A DNA stretch of 56,991 nt from Chiloscyllium plagiosum (Eukaryota). Under the pieces are notes generated by a model that had not been told where the DNA came from, ran no database searches, and saw only the letters and a list, made by a program, of their open reading frames with translations. The first letter of the stretch is position 1. Each line of letters opens with the position of its first letter. Location of the stretch: positions 4,093,286-4,150,276 of the forward strand of contig NC_057752.1 in NCBI RefSeq assembly GCF_004010195.1, in the 5' to 3' direction. The position numbers and the translations under genes are program-made. Below, piece after piece: positions 1,322-56,706 of the stretch.

Positions 1322-2280
1322 CTTGGTGGATAGAATATAATGTGGGAAAATGTGAGGTTATGCAGTTTGGTGGGAAGAATAGAGGAACTGAATATTATTT
1401 AAATTGAGAAAGACTGCAAAAATCTACAGCACAAAGGAATTTGGGGTACCTTGTACATAAACCACAAAACACCAGCATACAGATTCAACAGATAATAGGG
1501 AAGGCAAAAGGAATAAAATTTCAAAGGGAATAAAAATAGGGATGTCTTGCTAAATCTAAACAAGGCACTAGTTAGACTTCACCTGGACTGCAATGAGTAA
1601 TTTTGATCCCCTTGTCAAAGGAAAGATACACTGACATTGTATACAATCCAGGGAAGGTTAACTAGTTTGATTTTGGGTGTGGAGGGTTTGTCTTGTGAGG
1701 AGAGGTTGAGTCAGTCACGCCTGTACTTGTTAGAGTTTAGGAGAATGAGAGGAGACCTAATTGAAACATACAAATTCTTAGGAGACTTGACAGGGCAAAT
1801 ATAGAAAGTTTGTTTCTCCTTGTGTGAGAACCCAGGACCAGAAGGTATAATCTCAGATTAAGGGCTCACTCATGTAAAACAGAGACGAGAAGGGATTTTC
1901 TCTCTCAGAGGGTAGTGAATTTGTGAAATTCTTTTCTGTTGAGGCTGGGTCGTTAAGTATATTCAAGGCTGAGACAGATTTTTAATCAGAAAAGCCAAAG
2001 ACCTGCGGATGGTGGAAATCAGAAACAAAAACAGAAATTGCAGGAAAAATTCAGCAGGTCTGGCAGCATCTGTGGAGAGAAAGTAGAATCAACATTTTGG
2101 GTCCTATGACTCTCCTTCAGAATTTTCAGATTTTTAATCAATAAGGGCATCAAAGTATCTGTGGAAAAGGGAGGAATGTGGAGTTAAGGATTATCAAATC
2201 AGCCATGATCTCATTGAATGAGAGAGCAGACTCAATGGGCCTATTGGCCTACTTCTGCTCCTGTGTCTTATAGTCTTATG
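1322..2280 (+). mobile_element. CR1 LINE 3' portion (RT C-terminus and 3' UTR), decayed
   Basis: aatgtgggaaaatgtgagg (NVGKCEV), agaggagacctaattgaaacatac (RGDLIETY) and CR1 tail ggcctacttctgctcctgtgtcttatagtcttatg. Confidence 0.9.
1989..2126 (-). mobile_element. PLE family C terminal fragment inserted in the CR1 3' UTR
   Basis: Similar to 55716-55965; flanked by 14-bp direct repeat cagatttttaatca (1975-1988, 2127-2140). Confidence 0.75.
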
Positions 2281-6431: not shown

Positions 6432-6630
6432 CCATGACATGGAGGTGCCGGTAGTGGACTGGGGTGGACAAAGTTAAAAATCACACAACACCAGATTATA
6501 GTCCAACAGGTTTATTTGGAAGGACTAGCTTTCTGAGTGCAGCTATCTGACGAAGGAGCAGCACTCCGAAAGCTATACTTCCAAATAAACCTGTTGGACT
6601 ATAACCTGGTGTTGTGTGATTTTTTAACTA
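6432..6630. mobile_element. Palindromic mini-PLE, family A
   Basis: Inverted arms (aaaaatcacacaacaccag..tccaacaggtttatttggaag / cttccaaataaacctgttgga..gtgtgattttt); 12-bp TSD tgtataaagtag (6420-6431, 6631-6642). Confidence 0.88.
6544..6578 (+). ncRNA. Minimal hammerhead ribozyme motif (family A)
   Basis: CTGACGA-A-GGAG..CTCC-GAAA-GCTA; core at 6547-6553 and 6568-6571. Confidence 0.6.
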
Positions 6631-9508: not shown

Positions 9509-11520
9509 AGTCACAGAGTCACAGAGATGTACAGCATGGGGAACAGACCCTTCGGTCCAACTCATTCATGCCGACCAGATAGCCTAACCTAATCTGCCAG
9601 CACTTAGTTCATTTTCCTCAAAACCCTTCCGATTCATATACCCTCCCAGTTGCCTTTTAAATGCTGTAATTGTAACCAGCCTCCACCACTTCCACTGGTA
9701 GCTCATTCCATACACGTACCACCCTCTGTGTGAAAAGGTTGCCCCTTAGGTCCCTTTTAAATCTTTCCCCTCTCACCCTAAACCAATGGCATCTAGTTCT
9801 GGACTCCCCCAGCCGAGGGAAAGACCTTGTCTATTTACCCTATCCATGCCCCTCATGATTTTATAAACCTCTATAAGGTCACCCCTCAGCCTCTGACGCT
9901 CCAGGGAAAACAGCCCAAGCCTATTCAGCCTCTCCCTATAGCCCAAATCCCAACACTTGCAACATCCTTGTAAATCCTTTCTGAACCCTTTCAAGTTGCA
10001 TAACATCCTTCATATAGAAGGGAGACCAGAATTGCAGACAATATTCCAAAAGTGGCCGAACCAATGTCCTGTACAGCCGCAACATGACCTCCCAACTCCA
10101 ATACTCCAATACTCAATACCAATAAAAGAAAGCATACCAAACACTTCTTTACTATCCTATCTTTCTGCGACTCCATTTTCAAGGAACTATAAACCTGCAC
10201 TCCAAGGTCTCTTTGTTCAGCAACACTCTCCAGGACTTTACCATTAAATCCTTGTAAATCTTTTCTAAACCCTTTCAAGTTGCATAACATCCTTCATATA
10301 GAAGGGAGACCAGAATTGCAGACAATATTCCAAAAGTGGCCGAACCAATGTCCTGTACAGCCGCAACATGACCTCCCAACTCCAATACTCCAATACTCAA
10401 TACCAATAAAAGAAAGCATACCAAACACTTCTTTACTATCCTATCTTTCTGCGACTCCATTTTCAAGGAACTATAAACCTGCACTCCAAGGTCTCTTTGT
10501 TCAGCAACACTCTCCAGGACTTTACCATTAAGTGTATAAGTTCTGCCCTGATTTGCCTTTCCAAAATGCAGCACCTCACATTTATCTGAATTAAACTTCA
10601 TCTGCCAGTCCTTGGCCCATTGGCCCATCTGATCAAGATCCCGTTGTAATCTGAGGTAACATTCTTCGCTGTCCACTACACCTCCAATTTTGGTGTCGCT
10701 TGCAAACTTATTAACTATACTTCCTATGTTCACATCCAAATCATTTATATAAATGATAAAAAGCAGTGGACCCAGCAGCGATCCTTGAGACCTCCAGTCT
10801 CAAAGGTAACCCTCCACTACAACCCTCTATTTTCTACCTTCAATCAAGCCAGTTCTGTATGCAAATGGCCAGTTCTCCCTGTATTCCATGAGATCTAACC
10901 TTACTAACCAGTCTACCGTGACAAGCCTTGTTGAACACCTTACCGAAGTCCATAGAGATCACATCCACCGCTCTGCCCTCATCAATTCTCTTTGTTACTT
11001 CTTCAAAAAAACTCAATCAAGTTTGTGAGACATCATTTCCCACACACAAGTCCATGTTAACTATCTGTAATCAGTCCTTGCCTTTCCAAATACATGTAAA
11101 ATTTGTCTCTCAGGATTCCCTCCAACAACTTGCCCACCACTGACGTCAGGCTCACTGTCTATAGTACCCTGGCTTATACTTACCACTTTTCTTAAATAAA
11201 GGCACCATCTTAGCCAACCTCCAGTCTTCCGGCATCTCACCTGTGATTATTGATGATACAAATATCTCAGCAAGAGGCCCAGCAATCACTTCCCACAGAG
11301 TCCAAGGGTACACCTGATTAGGTCCTGGGGTTTATCCACCTTTATGCATTTTAAGACAGCCAGCACTTCCTCCTCTGTAATATGTACATTGTTCAGGATG
11401 TCACCATCTTATTCCCCACAATCTATATCTTCATTCCCCACAGTAAACACAATGCAAAAAACTCATTTAGAATCGCCCCCATCTCCTGCGATTCCACACA
11501 TAGGCTACCTTGCTGATCTT
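9509..11520 (-). mobile_element. HER1/CR1 LINE, ~2 kb 5'-truncated copy
   Basis: Minus-strand ORFs KFASDTKIGGVVDSEE..LQRDLDQMGQWAKDWQMKFNSDKCEVLHFG and LRGDLIEVYKIMRG; HER1-type (agtcacag)n tail at 9509. Confidence 0.93.
9964..10531. repeat. 284-bp tandem duplication inside the HER1 copy
   Basis: 9964-10247 repeated at 10248-10531, near identical (ORF track shows the same peptides twice). Confidence 0.9.
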
Positions 11521-12865: not shown

Positions 12866-13048
12866 ATGTGGAGGAGCCGGTGTTGACTGGGGTGTACAAA
12901 GATAAAAATCACACAACATCAGGTTATTGTCCAACAGGTTTATTTGGAAGCACTAGCTTTCAGAATGTTACCACCTGATGAAGGAGCAGTGCTCCTAAAG
13001 TTAGTGCTTCCAAACAAACCTGTTGGACTATAACCTAGTGATTTTTAA
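12866..13048. mobile_element. Palindromic mini-PLE, family A, with degenerate hammerhead core
   Basis: Inverted arms; ctgatgaaggagcagtgctcctaaag; TSD ctttgtcagatg (12854-12865) / ctttgtcaaatg (13049-13060). Confidence 0.85.
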
Positions 13049-14879: not shown

Positions 14880-15238
14880 ATCTGCAACATTCCCTAGGAC
14901 CTTATCATTAAGTGTATAAGTCCTGCTAAAATTTGCCTTTCCAAAATGCAGCACCTCACATTTATCTGAATTAAACTCCATCAGCCCATCTGATCAAGAT
15001 CCCGTTGTACTCTGACGTAACCTTCTTTGCTATGCACTACACCTCCATTTTTGGTGTCATCTGCAAACTTACTAACTACTCCTGTGTTCACATCCAAATC
15101 ATTTATATAAATGATGAAAAGTAGTGGACCCGGCACCAAGACTTGTGGCACTCCACTGGTCACAGGCCTCCAGTCTGAAAAACAACCTTCCACCACCACT
15201 TTCTATCCTCTACCTTAGAACTAGTTCTGTATCCAAAT
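14880..15238 (-). mobile_element. HER1/CR1 RT fragment
   Basis: ORF 14981-15199: SDWRPVTSGVPQVLVPGPLLFIIYINDLD..KFADDTK. Confidence 0.93.
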
Positions 15239-15240
15239 GA

Positions 15241-15767
15241 TCAGACTGATTCTAATCTAAAAAACGGATTTACAGAATCTTACATGGATTCATGCATTAT
15301 TTGAGCAAACTAAAATGTAATTCTGCAAGTTATTTAGATTAGAATCCGTTTTTTTAGATTAGAATCAGTCTGACCATTGTGGCACAGACAGCCTCACAGG
15401 GAGCTAACACCTTCAATACCTTATCTGGGCCGACATGACACCAATTGTTAAAGTTCATTTGAGAATGTAACTTCTAAAAAAGTTTTGCAATTTACATATG
15501 AAAGAACTGAAACCAACATGGTCATTCTAAAAGATGAGAGACTTAATAAACAATCCAGGTCTTTTTCAATATATAATTTCAGTTACATCACACTGTAAAC
15601 TTTTGCTATAAATTCTGTGTCTTACAATCTTATTCTCCACAATCATCTGATGAAGGAGCAGTGCTCCGAAAGCTAGTGCTTCGAATTAAACCTGGTGGAC
15701 AATAACGTAGTGTTGTGTGATTTTTAACTTTGTACACCCCAGTCCAACATCAGCATCTCCAAATCAT
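15241..15767 (+). mobile_element. PLE family A 3' UTR/terminal repeat with short inverted 5' segment
   Basis: 15241-15330 is inverted relative to the UTR (compare 49545-49640); 15343-15767 is colinear with 49605-50309 and ends in the tail gtacaccccagtccaacatcagcatctccaaatcat. Confidence 0.85.
15644..15678 (+). ncRNA. Minimal hammerhead ribozyme motif (family A, intact)
   Basis: cat-CTGATGA-A-GGAGC-AGT-GCTCC-GAAA-GCTA-gtg: core, 5-bp stem II, palindromic AGCU stem III, predicted cleavage after CUA (15675), 3-bp stem I. Confidence 0.75.
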
Positions 15768-18900: not shown

Positions 18901-19290
18901 TCGCCACACCCAGTGCAAACCCTTAACAGCCAAAGTTTGACATAAATGCATCTGTCAGTTATGACATACTTATTCGCACATTTGTCACCAAATCACAAGG
19001 TTCCAGTTGCAAGCCATTGTCAAGATCTGAATACAGAAATAAAGGCTGAAATCTGACATTGAGTGAGTGCTGTCTTTTTGGATGAGATGCTAACCGAGGA
19101 TCTGATTTGCATGTTCAGGTGGCTGTGAAAGACCCCTTTCGAACTATATTGAAGAAGTATCAGTTGAATAACCACAGTAACCTAACCGAACCTAATCTCC
19201 CTCGATCAACAGCACCAGATAAAGATCTAGTCATTATCACATTGCTCTTTGTGGAAGCTTGCTGTGCACAAATTGACTGGTGCATTTCTT

Positions 19291-19519
19291 AGCTGAAAAT
19301 GTGTTGCTGGAAAAGCGCAGCAGGTCAGGCAGCATCCAAGGAACAGGAGAATCGACGTTTCGGGCATAAGCCCTTCTTCAGGAAAGGCTGATTCCTGAAG
19401 AAGGGCTTATGCCCGAAACGTCGATTCTCCTGTTCCTTGGATGCTGCCTGACCTGCTGCGCTTTTCCAGCAACACATTTTCAGCTCTGATCTCCAGCATC
19501 TGCAGCCCTCACTTTCTTT
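19291..19519. mobile_element. Palindromic mini-PLE, family B (perfect 94-bp arms)
   Basis: 19291-19384 is the reverse complement of 19392-19485 with a 7-nt spacer; ~34-nt tail; TSD ctggtgcatttctta (19277-19291, 19520-19534). Confidence 0.92.
19392..19425 (+). ncRNA. Minimal hammerhead ribozyme motif (family B); mirror copy on the minus strand at 19351-19384
   Basis: CTGAAGA-A-GGGC-TTAT-GCCC-GAAAC-GTC; palindromic ACGU stem III, GUC triplet. Confidence 0.75.
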
Positions 19520-19730
19520 CTGGTGCATTTCTTACATTTACAACAGTGACTATAATTAAGAAAGTATTTCATTGGCTGTAAAGCTTTATGAGACATCTGA
19601 TGGTCCTGCAAAGAGCTATATAAATGCAAGTATTTGCTTTTATTTTTAAAGTCTGCATCCTTCATCACAAGGAGCAAGGATTGGCTGCTTCTGGAACTGG
19701 TAAAGAAATACTTCACTGCATTAAGATTTA

Positions 19731-21635: not shown

Positions 21636-22047
21636 GGACTTAGTTGTTAGCACTGTTCAGAGTGTGGTGCTGGAAAAGCACAGCAGGTTAGGCAGTATCA
21701 GAGGAGCAGGAGAATCGACGTTTCAGGTATAAGCCCTTCATCAGGAATGATCGGGAAGGGCTAATGCCTGAAGCGTCAATTTTCCTGCTCCTCGGATGCT
21801 GCCTGACCTGCTGTGCTTTTCCCGCACCACACTCTCGACTCTGATCGCCAGCATCTGCAGTCCTCACATTCTCCTGGTTAGCTCTGTTGCCTCACAGCGC
21901 CAGGTACCCAGATTCAATTCCTCCCTTGAGCTACTGTCTGTGTGGAGTTTGCACATTCTCCCCGTGCCTGTGGAGGTTTCCTCCAGGTGCTCCAGTTTCC
22001 TTCCACGGTCCAAAGGTGTGCATATCAGGTGGACTGACCATGCTAAA
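21633..22047 (+). mobile_element. HE1 V-SINE interrupted in its tRNA head by a mini-PLE
   Basis: gttagc.ctgttgcctcacagcgccagg..ctgtctgtgtggagtttgcacattctcccc V-domain. Confidence 0.85.
21658..21876. mobile_element. Palindromic mini-PLE, family B
   Basis: Inverted arms agagtgtggtgctggaaaagcacagcagg / cctgctgtgcttttcccgcaccacactct; TSD gttagcactgtt (21646-21657) / gttagctctgtt (21877-21888); degenerate hammerhead cores. Confidence 0.85.
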
Positions 22048-23690: not shown

Positions 23691-24574
23691 AAGTCCTGGG
23701 AGCACATGTTGGTCAGCAAGCTTGTTCACTCTGCTCCTGTTGCTGATTATACAGTGAAGTGTTGAAGGATGAAGGACAGATTATTGGTTGAGGTTTGAAT
23801 ACAGTCTTCCACTCACCTCTACATTGTGGCTGTGGGTCCAAATGGCATTGCAAACTGCTGCAGAAGCATCACTGATTCTTTTCCTTTTGTGCAGTCTACA
23901 GACATTAATACTAGGTTAGCCTCGAGTGATGAGGAAAAGACTATTTTTCCCCATTCTGTACTACAGGATTGCTTTTAGTCAGTGAGAAGATAGGGCCACA
24001 ACTAGCTCACTGTGGTTTGTAATTTGCCTGAAAGCTTTATAATCTTACAGTCTGTGTGTTCTAAACTAAATATTCTGCCTTTAACATTATATGTGCATAA
24101 AAGGACTGAACTTGTGTCAATGGACGTTAAGTGTTGTGGAACAAAATATATTTTAAACACTGTAACCTGGATGTAAGAATATTAAATGAAAGCTTCATGT
24201 AACTAGGATTCAATAGCCTCCTTAAAAGCCCTCTTCTTTGACATAAGGCTTAATGTTTCTCTGAGGTGCGTTGCAGTAAAAATAATGTGCATTACTGTAG
24301 CATATTTAAAGTCGGTGCTTTGAGGGAGCAATTGTCAGACAACATTTGGTGTTCAATGACATAATCGGGTATGAGAGTAGATAACTGAAATCTTGGTAGG
24401 GTTTAGAGAGTGTCATAAAGGAGGGAAGAGAGAGACAAGGAGGAGGAAAGGTCACCAGAAGGAATTCCACAATTTAAGGGTGGGGCAACTGAAGGCACAG
24501 ATGTCAGAATGCAGAATTGGCAGAGTGCAGATCTCTCAGAGGAATGTAGAGATCAAAAGAGACAGATTTGCATT

Positions 24575-24970
24575 AGTATAGTAGTTTTCATGATCATTGG
24601 ACAGCTCAAAACATTTTACAGCCAACATTTTGAGAAGTTGGTACTTTTTGATTTGCAGTCTTTGTTGTAATGTAAGAACCGTTGCAGACAAATTTTGCAC
24701 AGAAAGATCCCACAAATGGCAACGTGACAATAACCAGACAATGTGTGTTGTGTGACAAGGATAAATATTGGGCAAGACAGCAGAAAGCTCTCCCCTGCTC
24801 TCAAATTCAAATATGCGGGATTTCGCATGTCCATCTGCCTGTTGCTGTAGTTTAACATCTCATCTGAGCACCCCAGGCAATGCAGCATTCCCTCAGTACT
24901 GAACTGGAGTGTCAAACTAGATGTCAGGCATCCAAGAAACCTTTCTGGGTGAGATTCTTCAGTAGTGCCA
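24575..24970 (-). mobile_element. DeuSINE
   Basis: ttttacagccaac..tgttgtaatgta..gatcccacaaatggcaacgtg..aatattgggcaagac..ctctcccctgctct..tccctcagtactg. Confidence 0.7.
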
Positions 24971-27267
24971 AACAATAGAACAACAACAAAAGGAAATTAC
25001 TGCTGAGAAATACTTAGCAGACCAGGCAGCATCTATGAAGTGAAACAGAACCAACTTTTCAGGTCATGACTTTACATGAAGAAGTCAATGATTTAGCAGT
25101 TTATGTGAGGTTAAGAATGTGGATGAGGGAACAAGAAAAGACAAACGGAATGGCAGGCAGGAATAACAAAAGGGTTCACAGTGGAGGGTGAAGTTGGAGG
25201 ACTATGGCAGAAGCAGCAACATATCGACATGGAGGAGAACTCCATCACAGTAGCAGAACCATCATCAGCAACTACTCACCTACTCTTTGAGGTTTATCTA
25301 AAGTTATCAAAACCTGTATTGAGGTAAAAGGATGCAAGCTTGTCTTATCAAAAGATACAGTTTATTCCTCAATCTCCCATTGCCCAAACAATGAGCACTT
25401 GACTGTTTTGACTCCATGTTAACCAACAACTGGTCTGCTTGTCCCACCATCCTAAACATTTCCCAGGGAGGCATGCAGACAGCAGAGAGGAAAAGTGTTC
25501 ATTGCCATCTGGCTTGAAAGATGACAGCATAGTGTCTAAGCTACTGTATCTCCAGGCACTCCAGTTAGCTTATTAACACATTTCTCATTTATTACGATCA
25601 TTTTTGAAGCCATTGCCCTCTTGCTTTTGAAGTAATTCAAGAATTTGTCAATCTGGGGAAACAATTGTCATATAGTTGATTATCTCTGCCCTGAGGGGGA
25701 TGAGTGAGTGAGGCATCAATCAAAGTAGAGACCAGGAAGGGTGGGGAGGCTAAACATGCGAAAGGAAGGTCGACGGAATGGGTGTAGTCCAATAACTCAC
25801 TGATACTTAAAGCTTTGCTATGTGTTTGGCAGCTCAAAGGCTTGAATTAACCAGTTCTGACAAGTCTTGTCCTAGGATTCCTCTGAGACTGAATGGGTGC
25901 AGGCATTTTGCTGAGGTGTTTGCAGGTTTTACTTTTTCTCATACAACTCAAGTTTGAATAATGACCAGGTACTGAGGCCCAGAAGAGAGCCAGTCATCAT
26001 TGTACGTGCCCCAACTGTGCTGGAATCACCAATCTCAGCAAGCACAACAGTCAGTGTGCCATAATGGGCTTCAGTGAGGGAAGATTAATATAAAGCATCT
26101 GCCAGTTCCTATACTCTTCACTGGAATCTAGTAACAGTTGTTTGAAAGGTGATGTATATAGACACCAAGGGAGAGCAGGGTTGATGTTACTTCATCACTA
26201 CCACTACCTTTCACCCCAGTTGACCAGTTTCCCAACAGTTAGCACCTGGTAAATAGGCAAACAGCTCCCTACAGTTCTCACCACATGTTTTGGTGATTGT
26301 AGTCATCCTTTCGGACTGCGATGGATGGAGTGAGGATCCTGATATACATTGATAAAGGTGCTTTTGGAGGTGCTGCACCCAATGTCAAACATTTTTCAGG
26401 TATTGTGCACAACTTTATCCTATAAAAGGTTTGAGTGAATTAGGAGAAAGCTAGTGATCGAGATATCATTCTGTTAAAGGGGAGGAGAGAGTTTTAAGGT
26501 TTTATACAAAAGTAAGTACTGTTTAGAGAATAGAAATAAGGCATTTGTGCTCCCCCTTTAATTACAGCAGAATTGGGAGAGGTAAGCTTTGAGGCACTTA
26601 ATTTTAGAGGGTGAGGTGTTACTGGTATCCAGGGAGGAAAATTAAAAATATTTGTGTGTACCTTGCCTGCCCTAGTTTGGTCATTGAACTTCTTTCTGCA
26701 CTGATATGCAATTTTATAGGTGAAAGAATTGGTAATCAGTAGTGATGTCCCCTCCCTCCACACTACCAGGGACATTTTTTTCTCTGGCCTTCTCCATTTT
26801 TGACCTTGCCCAGGAGAGGTTTAGGGTTACTATCATAAACACTGCAACCCCTTCTTTTATCCATCATTAACTCGCCCTTGTCCCCCTTACAGTTATCGGT
26901 GACAGATCCTTGCCATTCCTGAAAGGTGGCAATGAGCAGCCTGGAGTGCAACTCACTGATGGTGAATGGAATAATCCAAATGCTTTGCCACTTATCTGTA
27001 GCTATCCTTGCCTGCTGCTGCTTCCATCTTCCTTTTCAAAGGCTGTACTCAGTACTAAGCACTTCCACTCCCCAGCACATTATTTTGCATGGGATTTATG
27101 CCAATGGATCCTCTAATTCACATGCAAACATGGCGTGCCTTGGAATTTTGGAGAAGTAAGAACAGACATGGTCCAGGCAAAGCTTACTCCATGATTGACA
27201 AAACTCACCATATGGAATTCTGGAACTTATGTCTTTAGTATAATTGAGCAAAGAGTTGTTATCTCAT

Positions 27268-28094: not shown

Positions 28095-31027
28095 ATTGTG
28101 GGGTTCAGCCAGTATTTATTGCACATCCCTAATTGCCCTTGAGCAGAAGGTGGTAAACTGCCTTTTTGAATCACTGCAGTCCATGTGCAGTAGTAGACCC
28201 ATAACACTATGAGGAAGGGAATTCCAGGATTTTGGCCCACCTACACTGAAGGAACAATGATATATTTCCAAGTCAGGATGGTGCATAACTTGAAGGGGAA
28301 ATTGCAGGTGGTGGATCTGCTGCCCTATCCTTTCAGGTGGTAATCATTATGGTTTTGGAAGATGCTGCTTCGGGAACATGGGAGAATTTCTGCAGTGTAT
28401 CTTATGGATGGTATCACTGAGTGTTGGTGGTCAAGGCAGTGAATGTGAGTAGGGTACCAATTGAGCAGGCTGTTTTGTACTGGATGGCATTGAGGGATTT
28501 GAAATTGTTGGAGCTGCACTCATTCAAGTAAGTGGGGAGTATTCCATCCTACTCCTGACCTGTGCCTTGTAGATGGTATCAAGGTCAGAAGTCATGTCAC
28601 ACTGGGTTAGAGTCCAACAGGTTTATTTGAAATCACAAGTTTTTAAAGCACTGCCCCTTCATCAGGTGAAGTGACTGTAACATGGTGTTGTGTGACTTCT
28701 GACCTTGTCCACCCTAGTCCAACACCAGCACCTCCATATTGTAGATGGTGGACAGGTTTTGGGGAGTTAGGAGGTAAGTTACTTGCTGCAGGGTACCTAG
28801 CCTCTGACCTGCTCTTGTTGCCACTGGTTCAGTTCAGTTTCTGATCAATGATAGCCCCCACAATGCTGATTGGGGGGATTCAGTGATGGTAGCACCATTG
28901 AATATCAAGGGGGGGCGAGTTAGATTCCCTCTTGTTACAGATGGTCATTTCCTGACATTTGTGTGGTGCAAATGTTACTTCCCATGTTTCAGTTGAAGCC
29001 TAGATATTGTCCAGGTCTTGCTGCATTTGGAGATGGACAGCTTCAGTATCTGGGGAGTCGTGAATGGTGCTGAACATTGTGCAATCAGTGAACACTTCCA
29101 TTTCTGATCTTATGATGGAAGAACAGTATTGATGTCGCAGCTGAAGATGATTGGATCAAGGATACTACCCTGAGGAACTCCTGCAGAGCTGTTTAGGAGC
29201 TGACATGACTAATGTCCAACAAAGACCATCCTCCCATGTGCCAGGTATGATTCCAACCAGGAGTCTTAACTTGATTCCCATTGATTTCAGTTTTGCTAGG
29301 GCTCCTCAACGCGATACTTGGTCAAATACAGCCTTGATATCAAAGATATTCACTTTCACCTCGCCTTTGGAATCCAATTCCCATATGTGAACCAAGGCTG
29401 TAGTAAGTTTAGGAACTGGGTGGCCTTGGCAGAACCCAAACTGGGCGTCACTGAGAAGGTTATTGCTGAGCAGGTGCTGCTTGATAGCACAATGGATGGC
29501 ACCTTCCATCACTTCACTCATGATCGAAAGTAAATTGATGGGGTGGTAATTGTCCGGGTTGGATTTGTTCTGCTTTTTGTTTACAGCACATATCTGGGTA
29601 ATTTTCCACATTGTCAAGGTGTCATTGTTGTAACTGTACTGGAACAGCTTGGCTCGAGATGCAGCAAATTCTGGAGCACAAGTCTTCAGTACTATTGCTG
29701 GAAGGATGTCAGGGCCCATAGCCTTTCCAATGCCCAGTGTCTCCAACCAATACTTGATATCATGTTGAATGAATTGAATTAGCTGAAGACTGACATCTGT
29801 GATGCTAAGGACCTCTGGAGGAGTCCAAGATGTGTTATCCACTTGGCACTTCTGGCTGAATATTGTTGTGAATGCTTTACCCTTAACTTTTGCGCTGATG
29901 TTTTGGGCTCCTCTGTTCTGGAGGATGGAGATGTTTGTGGGGCCTCCTCTTCTGGTAAATGTCCATCACCATTCATCACTAGATGTGGCAGGACTACAGA
30001 TATTACATCTGATTCATTGGTTGTAGAATTGCTTACCTCTATACATCATTTGCTGTTTATACTGTTTCACTCTGTAACATGATGGAGGGTATTCTCAATG
30101 TGAAGGTAAAATTTCAAGGACTGCACTTTGGTCACTTTTATTGATACTGTCATGGACAAATGCATCTGTGGCAGACAGACTGGTAAGGATGAGATCAAAT
30201 TTGTTTTCCCTCTTATTGGCTCCCTCACTACCTGCTGAACAGCAAATCAAGCAGGTATGTCATTAAATTATACAGCACAGAAGAGGCCCTTTAGAAACCA
30301 ACCAGTTCAATCAGTAGTACGGCTGCCAAGACACCTTTGGTGCTGGGCATTGAAGTTCCCTACCCAGAGTACATTCTGTGCCCTCACCACCCTCAGTGCT
30401 TCCTTAGAGTGCTGTTCAGCATGGAGGAGTACTGATTCATCAGCTGAGGGCAAGCAGTACATGGTGAGCAGTAGTAGGTTTCCATGCCCTTGTCTGATCT
30501 GATGCTGTGAGCCTTCATGATGTCCAGAGTCAATGTTGAGGACTACTAGGGTAGCTGCCTCCCAACTGTATACAAGTGTTCCACAACCTCTGCTGGCTCT
30601 GTCCTGCCAGTGGAACAGGACATAGCCAATGATGGTGATGGTGTTGTCTGAGACGTTGTGTGAAAGATATGACTGTCAGGCTGTTGCTTGAGTAGTCTGT
30701 GAGACAACAATCCCAATTTTGCACTAGTTCCCAGATGTTAGTAAAGAGGATTTTACAGAGGGTTGTTGCCCTTGTCATTTCTGGTGCTTTAGCCATTGCC
30801 AGGTGATCCATGCAGTTTTATTCCATTTTTCCTTTCTAGCATTTGATACATCTGAATAGCTTTCTAGACCATTTCAGGGGCAGTTAAGAGTCAACCACAT
30901 TCCTTGGGTTTGGAGAGCAGGTGATGAAACAAATAGTTATATTCCAATTTTTTAAAAATTAAATTATCCACATCCCCAGAACATTACCTTAGTCTCTGAC
31001 AATATCCACTCGGCCATCACCTCCCCC
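28095..31027 (-). mobile_element. CR1/L2-superfamily (Zenon-like) LINE, near full length, decayed, with tRNA-like 5' head
   Basis: ORF 29306-29842: KAMGPDILPAIVLKTCAPE..KSNPDNYHPINLLS..LLSDAQFGFCQG..DIKAVFDQV; head remnant ggggaggtgatggccgagtgg on the minus strand at 30965-31027. Confidence 0.85.
28578..28738. mobile_element. Palindromic mini-PLE, family A variant, inside the LINE
   Basis: caaggtcagaagtca / tgacttctgaccttg arms; cccttcatcagg core on the minus strand; TSD ttgtagatggt (28567-28577, 28739-28749). Confidence 0.8.
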
Positions 31028-34589: not shown

Positions 34590-35090
34590 CATCTCCATCA
34601 GTGACGACCGACTTGACCTCTCCATCTCCATCAGTGACGACCGACTTGACCTCTCCATCTCCATCAGTGACGACCGACTTGACACTGACATCTTCATCAG
34701 TGACGACCGACTTGACCTCTCCATCTCCATCAGTGACGACCGACTTGACCTCTCCATCTCCATCAGTGACGACCGACTTGACCTCTCCATCTCCATCAGT
34801 GACGACCGACTTGACCTCTCCATCTCCATCAGTGACGACCGACTTGACCTCTCCATCTCCATCAGTGACGACCGACTTGACCTCTCCATCTCCATCAGTG
34901 ACGACCGACTTGACCTCTCCATCTCCATCAGTGACGACCGACTTGACCTCTCCATCTCCATCAGTGACGACCGACTTGACCTCTCCATCTCCATCAGTGA
35001 CGACCGACTTGACCTCTCCATCTCCATCAGTGACGACCGACTTGACCTCTCCATCTCCATCAGTGACGACCGACTTGACACTGACATCTT
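34590..35090 (+). repeat. ~15 x 33-bp tandem repeat of PLE RT sequence
   Basis: Unit gacgaccgacttgacctctccatctccatcagt (DDRLDLSISIS), in frame with the downstream RT. Confidence 0.95.
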
Positions 35091-35609
35091 CTACAAACCC
35101 ACCGACTCCCACAGCGACCTGGATTACACCTCTTCCCACCCTATCTCATGCAAAAATGCCATCCCGTATTCCCAATTCCTCCGCCTCCGCCCTATCTGCT
35201 CCCAGGAGGAGCGGTTCCACCATAGAACACACCAGATGGCCTCCTTCTTTAGAGACCGCAATTTCCCTTCCCACGTGGTTAAAGATGCCCTCCAACGCAT
35301 CTCATCCACACCCCGCACCTCCGCCCTCAGACCCAACCCCACCAACCGCAACAAGGACAGAACGCCCCTAGTGCTCACCTTCCACCCTACCAACCTTCCC
35401 ATAAACCAAATCATCCGCCGACATTTCCGCCACCTCCAAACAGACCCCACCACCAGGGATATATTTCCCTCCCCACCCCTCTCCGCCTCCCGCAAAGACC
35501 GTTCCCNNNNNNNNNNNNNNNNNNNNNNNNNNNNNNNNNNNNNNNNACTCTCTCCCCACCCCCCCCCTCCTCTAGCTTATCTCTCCACGCTTCAGGCTCT
35601 CTGCCTTTA

Positions 35610-35644
35610 TTCCTGATGAAGGGCTTTTGCCCGAAACGTCGATT
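35610..35644 (+). ncRNA. Minimal hammerhead ribozyme motif in the PLE 3' terminus
   Basis: CTGATGA-A-GGGC-TTTT-GCCC-GAAAC-GTC at 35613-35640. Confidence 0.8.
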
Positions 35645-36799
35645 TTGCCTGTCCTCGGATGCTGCCTGAATTGCTGTGCTCTTCCAGCACCACTGATCCA
35701 GTGCCTTGTATGTCTTGGCATCACAAGTGTTCTTTTTTCATTCATTCATAGAGAATCATAGTCAGAGAATCATTGAGTCACACAGCATGGAAACAGACCT
35801 CATCTTAAATCATCATCCTCTGATTCTTTATCCTCCTAGTAGGAACAATCTCTATTTTATCTTGACTCCATGACTTTGAGCACTTCTATTAAATTTCCCC
35901 TGTAACCTTTTCCTCTCTAAACAGAAACCATGTTGTTTACTGTAATCTACCCAGATCATCAAATTCCCTGGAATCATTCTCGTGAATCTTTAGGCATCTT
36001 TCTAGTGACTTCACATTCTTTCTAAAGTGTGGATCCTAGAATTGGACACAATACTATAGTTGATGCCAAGTGTTTTGTAAAAAGGTTCACTGAAACATTC
36101 TTGCATTTGTACTCCAAGCCTTATTTATAAAGCCTAGAATCCCATATGATTTATTAACTACTCTCTAAACCTGTCTTGCCATTTATCAAGGATATTTTAT
36201 GTGTGCAGTTCAGTCCAGTCCATTGAATTGCAAATATATTACTTACTGAAGTCACCTTCTAGATCTTTCCTAATCAAGTTGTCCAGAGAAGTGTCTAATA
36301 TTGCCTCTCCTCATTCTTCCTTCCAAAATTAATCATTTTATATTTAATATATTACATTAAATTTTATCTGGAAAGATATACAGTTCTCATGCTTTTATAT
36401 ATATTGAATACAGGTATTAGAGATAGGTGAAAATCAAAAGGATTTGCTAGGTACTGAATCCAACTGAGCAATATATTTCTTTTACTTGATTCAGAATTAA
36501 AGGAAAGCCGAAAGTAATCACTTCCAGAAGTCCAAAAAACTTACAATGAACTTGTGAAAGAGCTATAACTCCTTCTTCCATCCTGATCCTTCATGGCTAA
36601 GAGGATATATGTTACCTGGTGCCTTGATCTCTGAAGTTGTAGTCCTGATGCTCAACACAGTACAATTATCAGCAAATATTCTCACTTCTCAAGTTAAGAT
36701 GGAGGAAAAGTCATTGACGAAGCAGCTGAAGATGTTTGGACCAAGGACAATAGCTTGTTGTACCTGCATGTTAAAAGGTCATGAGCTGAAACAGTGACT

Positions 36800-36897
36800 C
36801 TCCTACTTCTCTGATGCTGCTTGACCTGCTGTCCTTTTTTCAGCTCCACATTTTATCGACTCTAACTTTCCAGAATCTGCAGTCCTCATTTTCTCCA
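36800..36897 (+). mobile_element. PLE family B terminal fragment
   Basis: gatgctgcttgacctgctgtcctttttcagctccacatttt..tccagaatctgcagtcctcattttctcc. Confidence 0.7.
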
Positions 36898-38120: not shown

Positions 38121-38295
38121 GAGCTGAAAATGTGTTGCTGGAAAAGCGAAGCAGGTCAGGCAGCATCCAAGGAGCAGGAGAATCGACATTTCGGGCATGA
38201 GCCCTTCTTCAGGAATGCTGCCTGACCTGCTGTGCTTTTCCAGCAACACATTTTCAGCTCTGATCTCCAGCATCTGCAGTCCTCACTTTCTCCTC
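38121..38295. mobile_element. Palindromic mini-PLE, family B
   Basis: gagctgaaaatgtgttgctggaaaagc / gcttttccagcaacacattttcagctc arms; minus-strand CTGAAGAAGGGCTCATGCCCGAAA; 14-bp TSD ctgtttgaagtcta (38107-38120, 38296-38309). Confidence 0.9.
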
Positions 38296-41910: not shown

Positions 41911-42469
41911 GAAGGCTGAGGGGTCAAGGTGGTGATGATAGTATGCGAGGCTGAGTCATCAGAAATTGGGGTGGTGGGAGGTAGAGGAGACTTGGTGTAG
42001 GAGAGAGAGGAAGAAGGTATTTTATTAACACTTCCTGGGAGTGCACAAATTAGAAAAGAATACAATATCCTTTACTGCCAGGTGTACTCAAGTACAGGAG
42101 TATGGTGACAAGTTTTACAAAGTTGCCTCTTCTGGTGCCATCTTAGGTACAAGTACTGAGGTACATATCTTAGATACAAAAGAGGAATAACAAAGACAAG
42201 CAGTTGCATTTTCCATTGTTGAAAGAAAAAGTCAGAAATAAGACAGAGTAAAAGGATTGACATAATAGTCAGATAAAAAAAATTCAAATAAACATTCCAT
42301 TGCAAGAGCTGAGTGCAGGGGCTACCACACGCGGACCACCAGGCCACAGTCCAACGACTGCTCTGCTCTAAGCTTCCAGTCCGCAACGTGCTGGGTCTGA
42401 GGGTAAGTTTATTCCGAGCGGGATTCCCCAACTGGCCTCCACCTGAGACTCACTCCCTGCACCAGCACC

Positions 42470-46640: not shown

Positions 46641-46806
46641 CCGTCTCCGGGGCTTCCCATCTTCTCCATTCGAGGGGAAGTAATGAATAGAGAAAAGGAA
46701 AAGAACAGTCGGCGCAGAGGAGCCGTGATCTTTCAACTGAATTCGTTTAGTTCATGACCTCATTACAACCTTGGTCCGGATACGGACAACAGATCTGAAT
46801 TCCTGA

Positions 46807-47193: not shown

Positions 47194-48197
47194 GCACGGG
47201 ATAATGCATGCAAATCTTTTTATATTGAAAGGGAATGTTAGGGCTACTTGTAGCTGCCATTGTCATGTGACCTCTACCATGAGGCACTGACTTAGGGGCT
47301 GCCATCTCCAGTCACTTTAAATAAATTCACAGTACAGGTCAAAGTTTTTGCCTTACAAGCTCAAAACGCAATCTTCTCCAGTTGTCAGTTTCTTGATCTC
47401 TCTCCCCAGTTTCCAATGTCCTGCTCTTCTGTCTGTTGTCTATAGTTACATGCAGTTCCCCTCTTCTGCCCCCTTCCATTCCATGTAATGAAGACAAAAA
47501 ATATCAGAAATCATAGCATGGAGAGTCAGCAAGCTGACATTTCGAGTCTAGATAACTCTTTATCAGAGATTTTGTCTTCAGTACAAGGTTCCAGCATCTG
47601 CAGTAATTTGCTTTCCCTTTCATTCCATCCTCCCATGAAGTTGCTGACCCATGTTGCAGCATATTACCACAAGTAGTAACTACCATCCCAAAAACTGGTC
47701 ACACTATCTGAGCCAAAACAGTGAGCCAAGTATATGGGTTAGTGAGAAGTTGGGTTTACTGTGTTATTAAATGAGTTCAGGCCATTTATTTATTATCAAC
47801 AGTATCTCAGGATTTAAAGATTTATCAATAACGCTGAATCAAGTTGGGCCTGAATCAAGTACAGTTTCCTCTGCTTTAGTGGCTGTTACAGACTAGAGTT
47901 CAAGGGACTTACTCAAATACAATTAGTTTCTGGCGAATAATTAGCACTGGCCACCTAACATTCAGCATTTGTTGCCATTAGAAGTTATTTGAAACCTTGA
48001 TTCTTGCAAGCAGTTAATTTTATTAGGTCTCAGCTGTTTTATGTCGGAATTGCACCCAACTGGGCTCAGGCCTGGGCAGTTATCATTTCAAGCATAATCT
48101 GAATTGTATTGATTTGGAGATGCCGGTGTTGGACTGGGGCGGACAAAGTTAAAAATCACACAACACCAAGTTATAGTCCAACAGGTTTGTTTGGAAG

Positions 48198-48232
48198 CAC
48201 TAGCTTTCGGAGAGCTGCTCCTTCATCAGGTG
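48198..48232 (-). ncRNA. Minimal hammerhead motif in the inverted arm (degenerate partner at 50223-50258, + strand)
   Basis: Minus strand cac-CTGATGA-A-GGAG..CTCC-GAAA-GCTA-gtg. Confidence 0.65.
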
Positions 48233-48888
48233 GTCGTGGTGTAGAAGATCATAAGACACAGAATTTATAGCAAAAGTTTACAGTGTGATGAAACTGAAAC
48301 TATATATTGAAAAAGACCTGGATTGTTTGTTAAGTCTCTCATCTTTTAGAATGAACATGTTGTTTTCAGTTCTTTCATATGTAAATCGCAGAACATTTTA
48401 ACACAATTGGTGTCATGTCGGCCCAGATAATGCAGTTAAGGTGTGAGATGCCCTGTGTGAGACTATCTGTGCGACAATGTTCAGACTGATTCCAATCTAA
48501 AAATTAGATTTACAGAATCTTACATGGATTCATGCAGTCTTTGAACAAAGTAAAATGTAATTCTGCAAGTACAATTTCACCCCACAAACTTATATGTGTG
48601 CGTGTGTGTGTGTGTGTGTGTGGTGGGGGGGCGGAGGTTTATGAGTATCTGTGAGAGAGTGTGTGTATGTGAGTGTAAAGGGGTGTAAGCCTGTGAGAGT
48701 GTGCGTGTGTGCATGAGAGTGTACGTGTGAGCATATGAGAGCGCTTGTGTATGAGAAAGGGTCTGTGTGAGTGTATGGGTCTGTAGGAGTGTGTGTGTGT
48801 GTCTGTGGGAGTGTCTGTGTCTGTGGGAGTGTCTGTGTCTGTGTGTATGTCTATCTGTGAGTGTGCGTCTGTCTGTGTGCGCGCCTGT

Positions 48889-49198
48889 CATTGTCTATCT
48901 CATATGTTACAGGCAAGGATGCCCTGAGGCATGGTACATTGGTGAGATCGAGCAGAGGCTAGGGCAATGGATGAATGGACACCGCACAACAATCAACAGA
49001 CAGGAGTGTTCCCTCCCAGTCGGAGAACACTTCAGCGGTCCGGGACATTCGACCTTGGACCTTCGGGTGACCATTCTCCAAGGCGATCTTCGGGACAGGC
49101 AACAACGCAAAGTGGCCGAGCAGAGGCTTATAGCCAAGTTTGGTACCCATGGGGATTGCCTCAATCGGGACCTTGCGTTCATGTCACACTACAGGTGA
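48889..49198 (+). pseudogene. PLE GIY-YIG endonuclease C-terminal fragment
   Basis: IVYLIC..CPEAWYIGEIEQRLGQWMNGHR..PVGEHFSGPGH..RKVAEQRLIAKFGTHGDCLNRD. Confidence 0.88.
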
Positions 49199-49721
49199 CC
49201 CACAGCACTACACACACAGACAGACACGCACACACAGACACTCGTACACACAGATATTCCTACAGACACACACACACACACACTCCTACAGACCCATACA
49301 CTCTCACAGATCCTCTCTCATTCACAAGCTCTCTCTCATATGCTCACACATACACTCCCACACTCACAAACACACATATGTTTACACATACACTCCTACA
49401 CTCATACGCACCCTCTCACAGACTTATATCTCTTCACACTCACACACATACGCACACTCTCTCACAGACACTCATAACCCCCTCCACACCACACCATCAC
49501 CCCACCCCACCCCACACACACTTATAAGTTTGTGAGGTGAATTTGTACTTGCAAAATTACATTTTATTTTGCTCAAAAACTGCATAAATCCATGTAAGAT
49601 TCTGTAAATCCGTTATTTAGAACAGAATCAGTCTGAACATTATGACACAGGCAGTCTCACACAGGGCACCTCACATTACAGGTATCTGGGCCAACATGAC
49701 ACCACTTCTTCAAGTTCACTT

Positions 49722-50036
49722 AGATTAGATGCCCTACAGTGGGGAAACAGGCCCTTCGGCCCAACAAGTCCACACCGAACCTCCAAAGAGTAACCCACCA
49801 AGACCCATTTCCCTTAGACTAATGCATCTAACACTATGGGGCAATTTAGCAAGGCCAATCCACCTGACCTGCACATCCTTGGATTGTGGGAGGAAACCGG
49901 AGCACCCAGAGGAAACCCACGCAGACACAGGGAGAATGTGCAAACTCCACACAGACAGTCACACAAGGCTGGAATCGAACCCGGGTCCCTGGCGCTGTGA
50001 GGCTGGGGTGCTAACCACAGAGCCACCATGCCAGCC
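49722..50036 (-). mobile_element. HE1 V-SINE inserted in the PLE 3' UTR
   Basis: Full head, V-domain and tail on the minus strand; PLE UTR ...aagttcactt | aaagaaaatgtaac resumes afterwards (compare 15450-15475). Confidence 0.9.
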
Positions 50037-50574
50037 AAAGAAAATGTAACTTTAAAAAAGTTCTGCGATTTACATATGAAAGAACTGAAGCCAACATCTT
50101 CATTCTAAAAGATAAGAGACTTAACAAGCGATCCAGGTCTATTTTTAATATATAATTATAGTTACATCACACTGTAAACTTTTGCCATGAATTCTGTGTC
50201 TTACAATCTTATACTCCACAACCACCTGATGAAGGAACAGCGGTCCAAAAGCTAGTGCTTCCAAATAAACCTGTTGGATGAGAACCTGGTGTTGTGTGAT
50301 TTTAACTTTTGAATTGTATTGATTAGCTAACAGATGCCAAACGATGGTCTTGGTATGGGGAATGAGAAGAAAATAATTGCGTTAATGCTGCACATGAGGA
50401 GGACACTTGATCCATTGTTCCTGTGCTTGCTCTTTAGCAGAGCTAGCTAATTAATCCCACTCCCCTGTTCATTCCCTGAAGTCCAGCAAATGTTTTACTG
50501 CATGCTTTTCCACAATGGTGAAAGTATTTTCTTGAAACAATAGTCAGAGAGTTTTACAATCAAGCACCAGTCTT

Positions 50575-52410: not shown

Positions 52411-52902
52411 GTCCGCAAGAAAACATATGAGCAGTTCCGCCCACAGTACTCTGCCAACCTGGCCCTTTTACATGTAGAAGTCAATTTGACTGAGTGTTTT
52501 ACAGCCGAGCATGATCTGACCCTTCAACTGGAGAAGGATTCTTTCTGCGCTCCAGCTGAACTGGAAACCTACTTCTAAAGAATGCAATTACAATTCACTA
52601 TACTGAAGAATTCTTCACTCCCTGGTATTAATGCAAATGAACATACCTAGAGACTATTTGAGAATGACAGGAATGGGAACCTTGATTCCTTATTACCTCC
52701 CTTGACGAGGTTCGTGGTCCAAGAAGGTTGTGCCTAGCAATGATGCTCTGAATGCCATCCAAATTGAGTTGGGTAAACTTGGCAGTGCCTGAAGAGCAAA
52801 TCTGAGAACTTTCAGCTCTGTTTTGCACATCAGGCAACAAATGCCTGTGCACTCTTACTTTTTTTGTGTCCATGTACTATAAATAGTATTATGCACTATA
52901 TA

Positions 52903-55715: not shown

Positions 55716-55965
55716 GAAAGCAGAAATTGCTAGAGAAACTTAGCAGGTCTTGCAGAATCTGTGGAGAGAAAACAGAGTCAATGTTTCAGGTCCAGTGATC
55801 CTTCATCGGAACACATCAGATAAAAATGCATTTTGATGAAGGGTCACTGGACCCAAAAACATTGACTCTGCTTTCATCCTCACAGATGCTGCCAGATCTG
55901 CTAGCCTCTCTAACAATATCTGTTCCTTTTTCAGATTTCCAGCACCTCCAGTTCTTGGTTTTATG
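55716..55965. mobile_element. Palindromic mini-PLE, family C (older)
   Basis: cagagtcaatgtttcaggtccagtgatccttcatc / tgatgaagggtcactggacccaaaaacattgactctg arms with degenerate hammerhead cores (stem II GGGTC-ACTG-GACCC). Confidence 0.75.
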
Positions 55966-56100: not shown

Positions 56101-56312
56101 GAGTGTGGTGCTGGAAAAGCACAGCCGGTCAGGCAGCATCCGAGGAGCAGGAAAATCGACGTTTCAAGCATAAGTTCTTCACCCTCTTCCTGATGAAGAG
56201 CTTATGCTCGAAACATCAATTCTCCTGCTCCTTGGATGCTGCCTGACTGCCTGTGCTTTTCCAGCACCACATTCTCATCTCTGATCTCCAGCATATGCAT
56301 ACCCCACTTTTC
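56101..56312. mobile_element. Palindromic mini-PLE, family B
   Basis: Inverted arms; TSD ctaaattcaatagtta (56085-56100) / ctaaattcaactgtta (56313-56328). Confidence 0.88.
56187..56220 (+). ncRNA. Minimal hammerhead motif with compensatory stem II
   Basis: CTGATGA-A-GAGC-TTAT-GCTC-GAAAC-ATC. Confidence 0.65.
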
Positions 56313-56365: not shown

Positions 56366-56706
56366 ATAGAATCCCCCTACATTTGGAAACAGGCCATTTG
56401 GCCCAACAAGTCCACACCGACCTTCCGAAGAGCATCTCACCCAGACCCATTCCCCTATCTTATTACTCTACATTTCCCCTGACTTATGCACCTAACCTAC
56501 AAATCCCTGAACATTATGGGCGATTTACCATGGCCAATTCACCTAACCTGCACATCTTTGGACTATGGGAGGAAACCGGAGCACCCAGAGGAAACCCACG
56601 CAGACACAGGGAGAATGTGCAAACTCCACACAGACAGTCACCCGAGGCTGGAATCGAACCCAGGTCCCGAGCACTGTGACACAGCAGTGTTAACCACTGA
56701 GCCCCC
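56366..56706 (-). mobile_element. HE1 V-SINE, head abutted by a PLE
   Basis: V-domain and tail on the minus strand; ends at ..ttaaccactgagcc. Confidence 0.88.

What the first reader, a model, noticed from the sequence alone, without database searches (positions are those of the whole stretch)
19277..19534. Palindromic, hammerhead-bearing mini-Penelope elements form a recurrent unit across the window
Seen: eight 160-250 bp elements (6432-6630, 12866-13048, 19291-19519, 21658-21876, 28578-28738, 38121-38295, 55716-55965, 56101-56312) consist only of two inverted PLE termini. Seven have visible 11-16 bp TSDs, so they are separate insertion events. The best copy here is a perfect 94-bp hairpin with an intact hammerhead core on each strand next to a 7-nt loop. 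Established: PLEs carry minimal hammerheads in their terminal repeats and often insert with inverted termini. Inference: these are either stereotyped, very short two-sided PLE insertions or a MITE-like non-autonomous RNA family. A transcript from either strand would carry one ribozyme core and could alternatively fold into a long dsRNA hairpin (Dicer/ADAR substrate). About one per 7 kb, from three families.
Basis: partly seen in the sequence, partly recalled or inferred. Interest (0 to 1): 0.8.

Follow-up and report, generated by a model that had tools for sequence, protein, structure and literature searches.

The report
Mirror-image stubs of shark Penelope retrotransposons
These short DNA palindromes are real, separate insertions built from two head-to-head end pieces of Penelope-type jumping genes in a shark-like genome; they are likely dead-end copies whose shared inner edge likely marks where the element's RNA starts, rather than a new self-copying ribozyme element.

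Summary
All 8 inverted-arm elements exist and 7 of 8 have 11-16-bp TSDs. The 19292-19519 copy is a perfect 94-bp hairpin, and a related species has the empty site. Longer copies of two of the three terminal families carry Penelope RT or GIY-YIG remnants; one shows the same inverted-arm, one-sided-tail, TSD build at 2.2 kb, a published PLE layout. All 8 junctions differ. Only 1 of 8 has an intact hammerhead core on both strands, and there the hairpin is predicted to beat the ribozyme fold by about 53 kcal/mol. MITE and retrozyme tests fail. The useful residue is mechanistic: 8 of 12 arms that reach the ribozyme stop within about 2-9 nt upstream of it (P about 1e-7 to 1e-6), not at its cut site, and in 6 of 9 two-armed copies neither arm contains the other. 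Likely model: both target strands are primed, two cDNAs run off a short RNA's 5' end (likely the transcription start) and join head to head. The scan has noted this before (57 notes, at least 13 genomes).

The parts
19277..19291 (+). Left TSD copy (15 bp), inside an older host repeat
   Evidence: Exact 15-bp repeat at 19520-19534; present once in the organism B contig that joins 19276 to 19520 (table 8, record 10); host repeat runs through the site in two other window copies, 52902-53085 and 24568-24738
19292..19384 (-). Left arm, tail-less PLE end, sense on the minus strand; spans -3 to about +89 relative to the hammerhead's first core base (19381); minimal hammerhead about 19383-19352, predicted cut between 19354 and 19353
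19385..19390 (.). Junction letters that match neither arm (with 19391 they form the 7-nt loop)
   Evidence: parent sequence upstream of 19391 differs (table 7)
19391..19485 (+). Right arm, starts at -4; minimal hammerhead about 19393-19424 (core begins 19395), predicted cut after 19422
19486..19519 (+). 34-bp one-sided PLE tail; ends at a fixed point
   Evidence: 743, 756 and 212 contigs in three runs leave the element behind 19517 into unrelated AT-rich DNA (table 7)
19520..19534 (+). Right TSD copy
21658..21876 (.). Family A stub, 12-bp TSD (1 mismatch); tail-less arm to about -6 with intact core, tailed arm from about +4 with broken core
38121..38295 (.). Family A stub, 14-bp TSD; tail-less arm to -4 with intact core, tailed arm from +46, joined over a 3-nt overlap; arms 96% identical to the 19292 copy but a different junction
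56101..56312 (.). Family A stub, 16-bp TSD (2 mismatches); tailed arm to about -3/-8 with core motif, tail-less arm from +1
6432..6630 (.). Family B stub, 12-bp TSD; tailed left arm from +10, tail-less right arm to about -2/-6 with core motif
12866..13048 (.). Family B stub, 12-bp TSD (1 mismatch); tailed left arm from +18, tail-less right arm to -5, core broken
28578..28738 (.). Family B (second subfamily) stub, 11-bp TSD; tail-less arm to about -3 with broken core, tailed arm from +51
55716..55965 (.). Family C stub, old (arms 76-79% alike), both arms to about -7, both cores broken, no TSD found
1989..2126 (-). Family C one-armed stub with tail and a 14-bp TSD; its 5' end also lies about 3-6 nt upstream of the (decayed) core
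48115..50309 (.). Long family B copy with the same build: tailed inverted arm 48115-48863, direct tail-less arm from 48864 with a GIY-YIG remnant (48890-49195) and decayed core at 50226; 15-bp TSD 48100-48114 / 50310-50324
34590..35693 (+). Long one-armed copy of a family A relative: RT thumb remnant (35008-35505), N gap, intact core at 35613; 12-bp TSD (1 mismatch)
15236..15766 (+). Medium family B copy (-274 to the tail end, intact core at 15647) with an internal 5' inversion; TATAAA 40 nt upstream of the core

Best explanation
Each palindrome is a separate, TSD-flanked insertion of two end pieces of an endonuclease-bearing Penelope-like retrotransposon (Neptune/Nematis type), likely made when the element's protein primed both strands of a staggered cut, copied a short stretch of its RNA from each, and the two cDNAs were joined head to head. 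Steps: (1) inferred from the TSDs: the GIY-YIG endonuclease makes an 11-16-nt staggered cut in AT-rich DNA. (2) Shown for the DNA ends, inferred for the enzyme: the outer ends fall at two fixed sites 34-37 nt apart, one per arm, which match the two internal RT start sites that define the PLE tail in vitro. (3) Shown: many arms stop 2-9 nt upstream of the hammerhead core. [quoted passage not shown] (4) Inferred: the two cDNA 3' ends are joined by short overlaps or added letters, so every junction is new. (5) Predicted: the ribozyme is a passenger, copied uncut and locked in the hairpin if the stub is transcribed.
For: PLE link: family B end sits on a GIY-YIG remnant (83% to P0001 over 102 aa) and a family A relative on an RT-thumb remnant (86% to P0025 over 169 aa); P0025 has Pfam RVT_1, P0041 has GIY-YIG above cutoff, P0001 aligns to P0041 at E 7e-48; all 5 homologues checked have a CxxxxCxxC linker. 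Same build at 2.2 kb (48115-50309). Empty site in organism B. Fixed outer ends genome-wide: family B loose ends before 48110 in 1891 and 1812 contigs and before 48145/48147 in 533/508 and 542/492 contigs (X1, X13). One tail per two-armed copy in 9 of 9. In 6 of those 9 (21658, 38121, 6432, 12866, 28578, 48115) each arm holds sequence the other lacks, so neither was copied from the other. Inner ends of 20 family A/B arms: 8 at +1 to +51, 8 at about -2 to -9, none from there to -273, 4 beyond; P(8 or more of 12) 7e-8 for an 8-nt window and 7e-7 for 11 nt under memoryless truncation. 7 of 7 head-to-head joints shown for family B have one side at +10 to -5. A one-armed TSD-flanked stub (1989-2126) ends at the same place. 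Upstream signals: TATAAA at -40 in 2 of 3 long family B copies; the family A parent reads as an initiator match with its A at -4 (table 7; consensus recalled). In vitro, an anole PLE nicks and extends both strands, starts RT at two internal sites that bound the tail, and uses uncleaved RNA (PMC11167929).
Against: No RNA 5' end was observed: X22 laid 0 reads and contigs cannot show starts. An extra G at the arm's 5' edge, the cap signature reported in earlier scan notes, is seen in only 1 of 9 arms I could read (19390), so it is inconclusive here. One near-symmetric family A junction recurs (13 contigs, depth 12,739 of 405,726 in X1; 9 contigs, 6,612 of 207,558 in X13; table 4), which fits independent run-off but also some copying of stubs. 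TATAAA at -40 is 35-38 nt from the observed ends, a little far, and no TATAAA lies upstream in the family A relative. Family B loose ends at 48231-48234 are confounded by subfamily differences just upstream of the core, and family A pile-ups at 19383-19394 are forced by the reference ending there. Only 15 of 2037 and 15 of 284 joints were shown. Several inner-end positions were read by hand (a few nt uncertain). In D. virilis Penelope the start lies 46 nt before an intron that ends at the ribozyme, so ribozyme edge and start need not coincide. Family C has no ORF link in this window. In the main copy and in 56101 the tail-less arm is contained in the tailed arm, so fold-back is not excluded there.
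Confidence: 0.65

Rival explanations
1. Same independent PLE insertions, but the inner edge is a barrier or processing point rather than the transcription start: RT stalls at the folded ribozyme or a bound protein, or stops at a splice junction at the 5' edge of helix I.
For: The edge coincides with the 5' strand of helix I (2-3 bp). In D. virilis an intron ends exactly there (PMC4209133). The extra-G test is inconclusive here.
Against: After the edge no arm ends for about 270 nt (0 of 4), which looks like two template classes rather than a leaky pause. RT would meet helix II and the core before this edge. A spliced RNA should add a constant 5' exon at the junctions, and the 8 junctions share none.
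Confidence: 0.15
2. The inverted arm arises by self-priming or fold-back of one molecule, with the endonuclease trimming one end (model discussed in PMC3846280 and PMC8557442).
For: Near-perfect palindromes at inverted junctions are reported. Arms of the main copy are identical (93/93) and the short arm is contained in the long one; 38121 has a 3-nt overlap at its junction.
Against: In 6 of 9 two-armed copies neither arm contains the other. The tail-less end is fixed across about 1000 contigs per run, matching a second RT start site.
Confidence: 0.1
3. The stubs are a non-autonomous family that is itself transcribed and re-inserted in trans by the PLE protein.
For: Each stub keeps the RT start region; non-autonomous PLEs exist (MRC1); one junction variant recurs at about 3% of depth at that place; tail-to-tail joints 48110/48145-48146 occur in 41 and 28 contigs.
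Against: 8 of 8 window junctions differ, including two copies with 96% identical arms. The listed joints inside the element rest on at most 4 contigs per run, among 2037 joints over the stretch (part belong to a neighbouring repeat). Stubs lack the upstream TATA region. The 94-bp hairpin would hide the template.
Confidence: 0.07
4. Stubs are long inverted-arm insertions whose middles were deleted later.
For: A long inverted-arm copy exists (48115-50309) and long inverted repeats are unstable (general knowledge).
Against: The youngest copy (identical arms, absent in organism B) is already minimal; deletion does not explain the pile-up at -2 to -9 or the one-armed TSD-flanked stub.
Confidence: 0.03

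Closest known systems
Insertion unit of endonuclease-bearing Penelope-like elements: inverted 5'-truncated copy, pLTR, one-sided 30-40-bp tail, TSD (PMC8557442 Fig. 2 legend and text, passages; Adineta Pen2/Pen2a, PMC3846280, passages)
   Same: Head-to-head inverted ends, tail on one side only (34-37 bp), TSD, hammerhead in the terminal repeat, RT-linker-GIY-YIG parent
   Different: No ORF between the arms; 160-250 bp; about one per 7 kb; TSD 11-16 bp against 8-10 bp in Adineta; inner ends pile up at one point
Minimal hammerheads of metazoan PLEs (PMC4209133, parts 1-2 of 4 read)
   Same: Type I core, unpaired base after A9, G10.1-C11.1, palindromic 4-nt helix III with no loop; the paper already reports pairs 100-700 bp apart on opposite strands and many single truncated copies
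   Different: Helix II is 4-5 bp and helix I only 2-3 bp here; sharks were not among the genomes named in the parts read
Poseidon of Anolis carolinensis in vitro (PMC11167929, parts 1-2 of 4 read)
   Same: Two RT start sites about 90-130 nt downstream of the ribozyme bounding the tail; AT-rich targets (TSDs 69% AT against 58%); uncut RNA copied
   Different: Different clade; the paper does not treat head-to-head joining or run-off at the RNA 5' end in the parts read
Metazoan non-LTR retrozymes (PMC7229834, passages)
   Same: Small, non-coding, hammerhead-bearing, high copy
   Different: Retrozymes are head-to-tail tandem repeats with canonical type I ribozymes that give circular RNA; these are single head-to-head units with minimal, mostly broken cores
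LINE-1 twin priming (recalled, no call)
   Same: Second target strand primes a second cDNA and gives a 5' inversion; 15236-15766 looks like this
   Different: In the stubs both cDNAs start at fixed sites near the same end, so the arms duplicate each other

Membership tests
EN+ Penelope-like element (derived insertion) | Terminus attached to a PLE RT / GIY-YIG ORF | tested here: met
   Families A (relative) and B. Family C: no ORF link found in the window.
EN+ Penelope-like element (derived insertion) | Inverted truncated copy adjacent at the 5' side | tested here: met
   8 of 8 stubs and the long copy 48115-50309
EN+ Penelope-like element (derived insertion) | 30-40-bp tail at one end only | tested here: met
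   9 of 9 two-armed copies; 34 bp in the main copy, 35-37 nt in family B contigs
EN+ Penelope-like element (derived insertion) | Minimal type I hammerhead in the terminal repeat | tested here: met
   Motif intact in 6 of 16 stub arms and 3 of 4 long-copy ends; activity not tested
EN+ Penelope-like element (derived insertion) | Insertion with TSD and empty site | tested here: met
   7 of 8 TSDs; empty site in organism B for the one locus tested
Neptune/Nematis clades | Zn-finger-like linker between RT and EN | tested here: met
   CxxxxCxxC in 5 of 5 homologues checked; the linker itself is missing from the window remnants
Neptune/Nematis clades | RT phylogeny with named reference elements | not tested
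MITE (features recalled) | Terminal inverted repeats reaching both ends and a fixed short TSD | tested here: not met
   One-sided tail lies outside the inverted repeat; TSD 11-16 bp, variable
MITE (features recalled) | Homogeneous internal sequence shared by copies; DNA-transposon parent | tested here: not met
   8 of 8 junctions differ; parents are retroelements
Non-LTR retrozyme | Head-to-tail tandem repeats with canonical type I hammerheads | tested here: not met
   Single head-to-head units, minimal cores
Non-LTR retrozyme | Expressed as circular RNA | not testable with these tools
   No usable raw RNA reads
Self-propagating non-autonomous PLE family | Copies descend from stub masters (junction linked to private variants) | tested here: inconclusive
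   Window junctions unique, but one junction recurs in contigs; linkage could not be read

The most novel reading that the evidence does not exclude
The stubs are a genome-scale fossil record of the unsolved PLE integration step: a dimeric enzyme primes both target strands at two different RNA sites, both cDNAs run off the capped RNA start and are fused head to head; and a minority of stubs are re-copied as whole palindromic units through a joined (tail-to-tail, circular or concatemeric) intermediate, which would make them a new kind of non-autonomous retroelement.
Probability: 0.07. Interest if true: 0.7.

Novelty: new member of a known kind. Interest (0 to 1): 0.3.

Why it matters
As elements they are ordinary PLE by-products, and they are easy to mislabel as MITEs, miRNA hairpins or ribozyme genes. 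Their value is as natural records of PLE integration, which the literature calls undefined (PMC8557442): fixed outer ends match the two RT start sites found in vitro, and the inner pile-up gives a testable position for the RNA start. If the model holds, it explains inverted pLTRs and the one-sided tail in one step and predicts that only tandem copies make full-length progeny. At one per 7 kb they are also a large possible source of intronic double-stranded RNA in sharks, which is untested.

Tried and rejected
No own genome is held, so no genome-wide catalogue of junctions could be made. Rfam gave no hammerhead family; its 14 matches are all below gathering score and mostly reflect the hairpins. 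A 19-nt arm motif gave 0 viral loci and 81 metagenome loci, 0 of 81 with a match of 30 nt or more: chance. Pfam on the two window ORF remnants gave 0 families; the PLE call rests on longer homologues. Raw RNA run X22 laid 0 reads: no test of expression, small RNA or editing. Contigs of guessed-RNA runs X15, X16, X17 cover the arms, but may be DNA and show no starts; A>G places 10-11 against 8-11 in DNA runs: no sign of editing and no real test. Depth profiles of contigs are not copy numbers and were not used as counts (family B depth falls about 8-fold from 48216 to 48235 but rises again at 48264-48297). Ribozyme cut site as the inner edge: rejected, since no window arm of 20 ends at +28/+29 and no loose-end pile-up is listed there. 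Extra-G cap test: 1 of 9 readable arms, inconclusive. TSD searches at 541, 25001, 36786, 15236 and 55716 found nothing convincing. A Pfam scan for host exons was not completed, so whether the stubs lie in an intron is unknown. Sequence look-up in earlier findings gave nothing; a look-up for tail-to-tail joints gave nothing.

Full report
Observation. All 8 elements are real inverted-arm units (8 of 11 inverted pairs), far beyond chance (148 exact 14-mer inverted pairs within 400 nt against 0-1 in 20 shuffles). Seven of 8 have 11-16-bp TSDs; the same test passed at 0 of 2923 random places. The main copy is TSD 19277-19291, left arm to 19384, 7-nt loop, right arm 19392-19485, a 34-bp unpaired tail to 19519, TSD 19520-19534. 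A 384-nt contig of organism B (run X13) joins 19276 directly to 19520, with 8 other letters in 381 aligned: the empty site with one TSD copy (table 8). The insertion is therefore young, in line with its identical arms. Run X1 (organism A) gave no contig across the site. The element sits inside an older repeat that is uninterrupted in two other window copies.

What the arms are. BLAST of the arms against the window finds longer copies of the same ends. Family B: 48115-50309 has a 15-bp TSD, a tailed inverted arm of 750 bp, and a direct arm with a GIY-YIG remnant, 83% identical over 102 aa to P0001. A family A relative at 34590-35693 carries an RT-thumb remnant, 86% identical over 169 aa to P0025, with an N gap before its ribozyme. 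The homologues come from bamboo sharks and other cartilaginous fish, so the host is bamboo-shark-like (inference). P0025 has RVT_1 and P0041 has GIY-YIG above Pfam cutoff, P0026 below cutoff, P0001 none; P0001 aligns to P0041 at E 7e-48. Five of 5 homologues checked have a CxxxxCxxC linker, which marks Neptune and Nematis (PMC8557442, passages). Family C has no ORF link in this window and is filed by its build and similarity of ends only.

Known layout. An inverted 5'-truncated copy, a 30-40-bp tail at one end and a TSD are the published PLE insertion unit (PMC8557442; PMC3846280). Minimal hammerhead pairs 100-700 bp apart on opposite strands were already noted (PMC4209133). Every two-armed copy here has one tail (9 of 9). 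In contigs the outer ends are fixed: family B leaves into unrelated AT-rich DNA before 48110 (1891 and 1812 contigs) and before 48145/48147 (533/508 and 542/492) in X1 and X13; family A behind 19517 (743 and 756). An anole PLE in vitro nicks and extends both strands and starts RT at two internal sites whose spacing is the tail (PMC11167929). I infer that each arm started at one of these two sites.

Two templates, not fold-back. In 6 of 9 two-armed copies (21658, 38121, 6432, 12866, 28578, 48115) the tail-less arm reaches further upstream while only the other arm has the tail, so neither can be a copy of the other. In 19292, 56101 and probably 55716 the short arm is contained in the long one, and fold-back is not excluded.

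The inner edge. I listed 20 arms of 12 family A and B copies (family C and the internal inversion at 15236-15320 were left out; some ends were read by hand). Eight end at +1 to +51 from the first core base, 8 at about -2 to -9, none between there and -273, and 4 run further. Under memoryless truncation 0.7-1.0 of 12 would be expected at the edge; P is 7e-8 to 7e-7. The two arms of 55716 and the one-armed, TSD-flanked 1989-2126 end near the same point. All 7 head-to-head joints shown for family B have one side at +10 to -5 (15 of 284 joints shown). The edge is not the ribozyme cut site (+28/+29), which fits the in vitro finding that uncut RNA is copied. The likeliest cause is the RNA's 5' end. 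TATAAA lies at -40 in 2 of 3 long family B copies, and the family A parent, read from 358 loose-end contigs (agreement 0.34 over 30 letters), matches the recalled initiator consensus with its A at -4, where the main right arm begins. This step is inferred; no RNA end was seen. An extra G before that A is present in the main copy but in only 1 of 9 readable arms.

Self-propagation. All 8 junctions differ, including 19292 and 38121, whose arms are 96% identical. Contigs show 2037 joints over the 1-kb stretch (part from a neighbouring repeat), those listed inside the element on at most 4 contigs per run. Against my reading, one near-symmetric junction recurs (13 and 9 contigs, about 3% of depth at that place), and tail-to-tail joints occur in 41 (X1) and 28 (X13) contigs. 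A fixed RNA end would recreate the first independently; the second is unexplained. MITE and retrozyme features tested were not met.

Ribozyme. Both arms of the main copy have an intact minimal core; 4 other stubs have one and 3 have none. The hairpin folds at -197 and -201 kcal/mol; forcing the ribozyme fold costs 52.5 and 55.7. On either strand the antisense arm is made first. Minimal PLE hammerheads did not cleave as monomers (PMC4209133) and needed protein in the anole element. Activity in the stub is therefore predicted to be absent. Dicer or ADAR action is possible but untested.

Literature and earlier notes. Read: PMC4209133 and PMC11167929, parts 1-2 of 4 each; passages of PMC8557442, PMC3846280, PMC2377424 and PMC7229834; no supplements, which may hold examples of such stubs (notably PMC4209133 Fig. 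S2-S5 and PMC11167929 Fig. S2). Eight searches listed no paper on shark PLE stubs or on run-off at the PLE RNA start; subscription papers and repeat databases are not covered. LINE-1 twin priming, the initiator consensus, TATA spacing and MITE features are recalled. The scan's own notes hold 57 such findings in at least 13 genomes (more), most with the same reading; they are not independent evidence. I ran the inner-edge statistic and the extra-G check after seeing them.

Verdict. Real, ordinary in kind, with a useful mechanistic clue. New member of a known kind; interest 0.3.

Noticed in passing
Read laying, window 48110 with 48145/48146: Tail-to-tail joints: the tailed end abuts the tail-less end on the opposite strand in 41 contigs of X1 and 28 of X13, about 2% of tail ends. 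Could be insertion next to an older copy or joined units; unexplained.
   Followed up: partly
34590-35090: About 15 tandem copies of a 33-bp unit (11 codons of the PLE RT, in frame) at the 5' end of a TSD-flanked truncated PLE; looks like RT stuttering or later array growth.
   Followed up: partly
15236-15766: Family B copy with an internal 5' inversion (positions -331 to -247 reversed), like LINE-1 twin priming; no clear TSD.
   Followed up: partly
56701-56991: Fragment of a PLE RT (82% to P0025 residues 242-338) starting right after a short repeat and running off the window end.
   Followed up: no
541-665, 36786-36894, 25001-25065: Older one-armed PLE end fragments of families B, A and C without clear TSD.
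   Followed up: partly
42458-46700: Large 31-bp tandem array with long open frames rich in Cys, Pro and Leu and an N gap; likely a satellite.
   Followed up: no
49720-50040: Short interspersed repeat inserted in the direct arm of the long family B copy (other copies near 27859 and 56518).
   Followed up: no
P0002, P0007, P0018, P0022, P0030: PLE ORF pieces appear inside several annotated shark and ray gene models (PPP1R12A-like, a GPCR, septin 5a, IQCK, DIPK1C): exonisation or annotation error.
   Followed up: no
9964-10531: 284-bp direct duplication (99%) inside a LINE RT fragment; possibly an assembly artefact.
   Followed up: no
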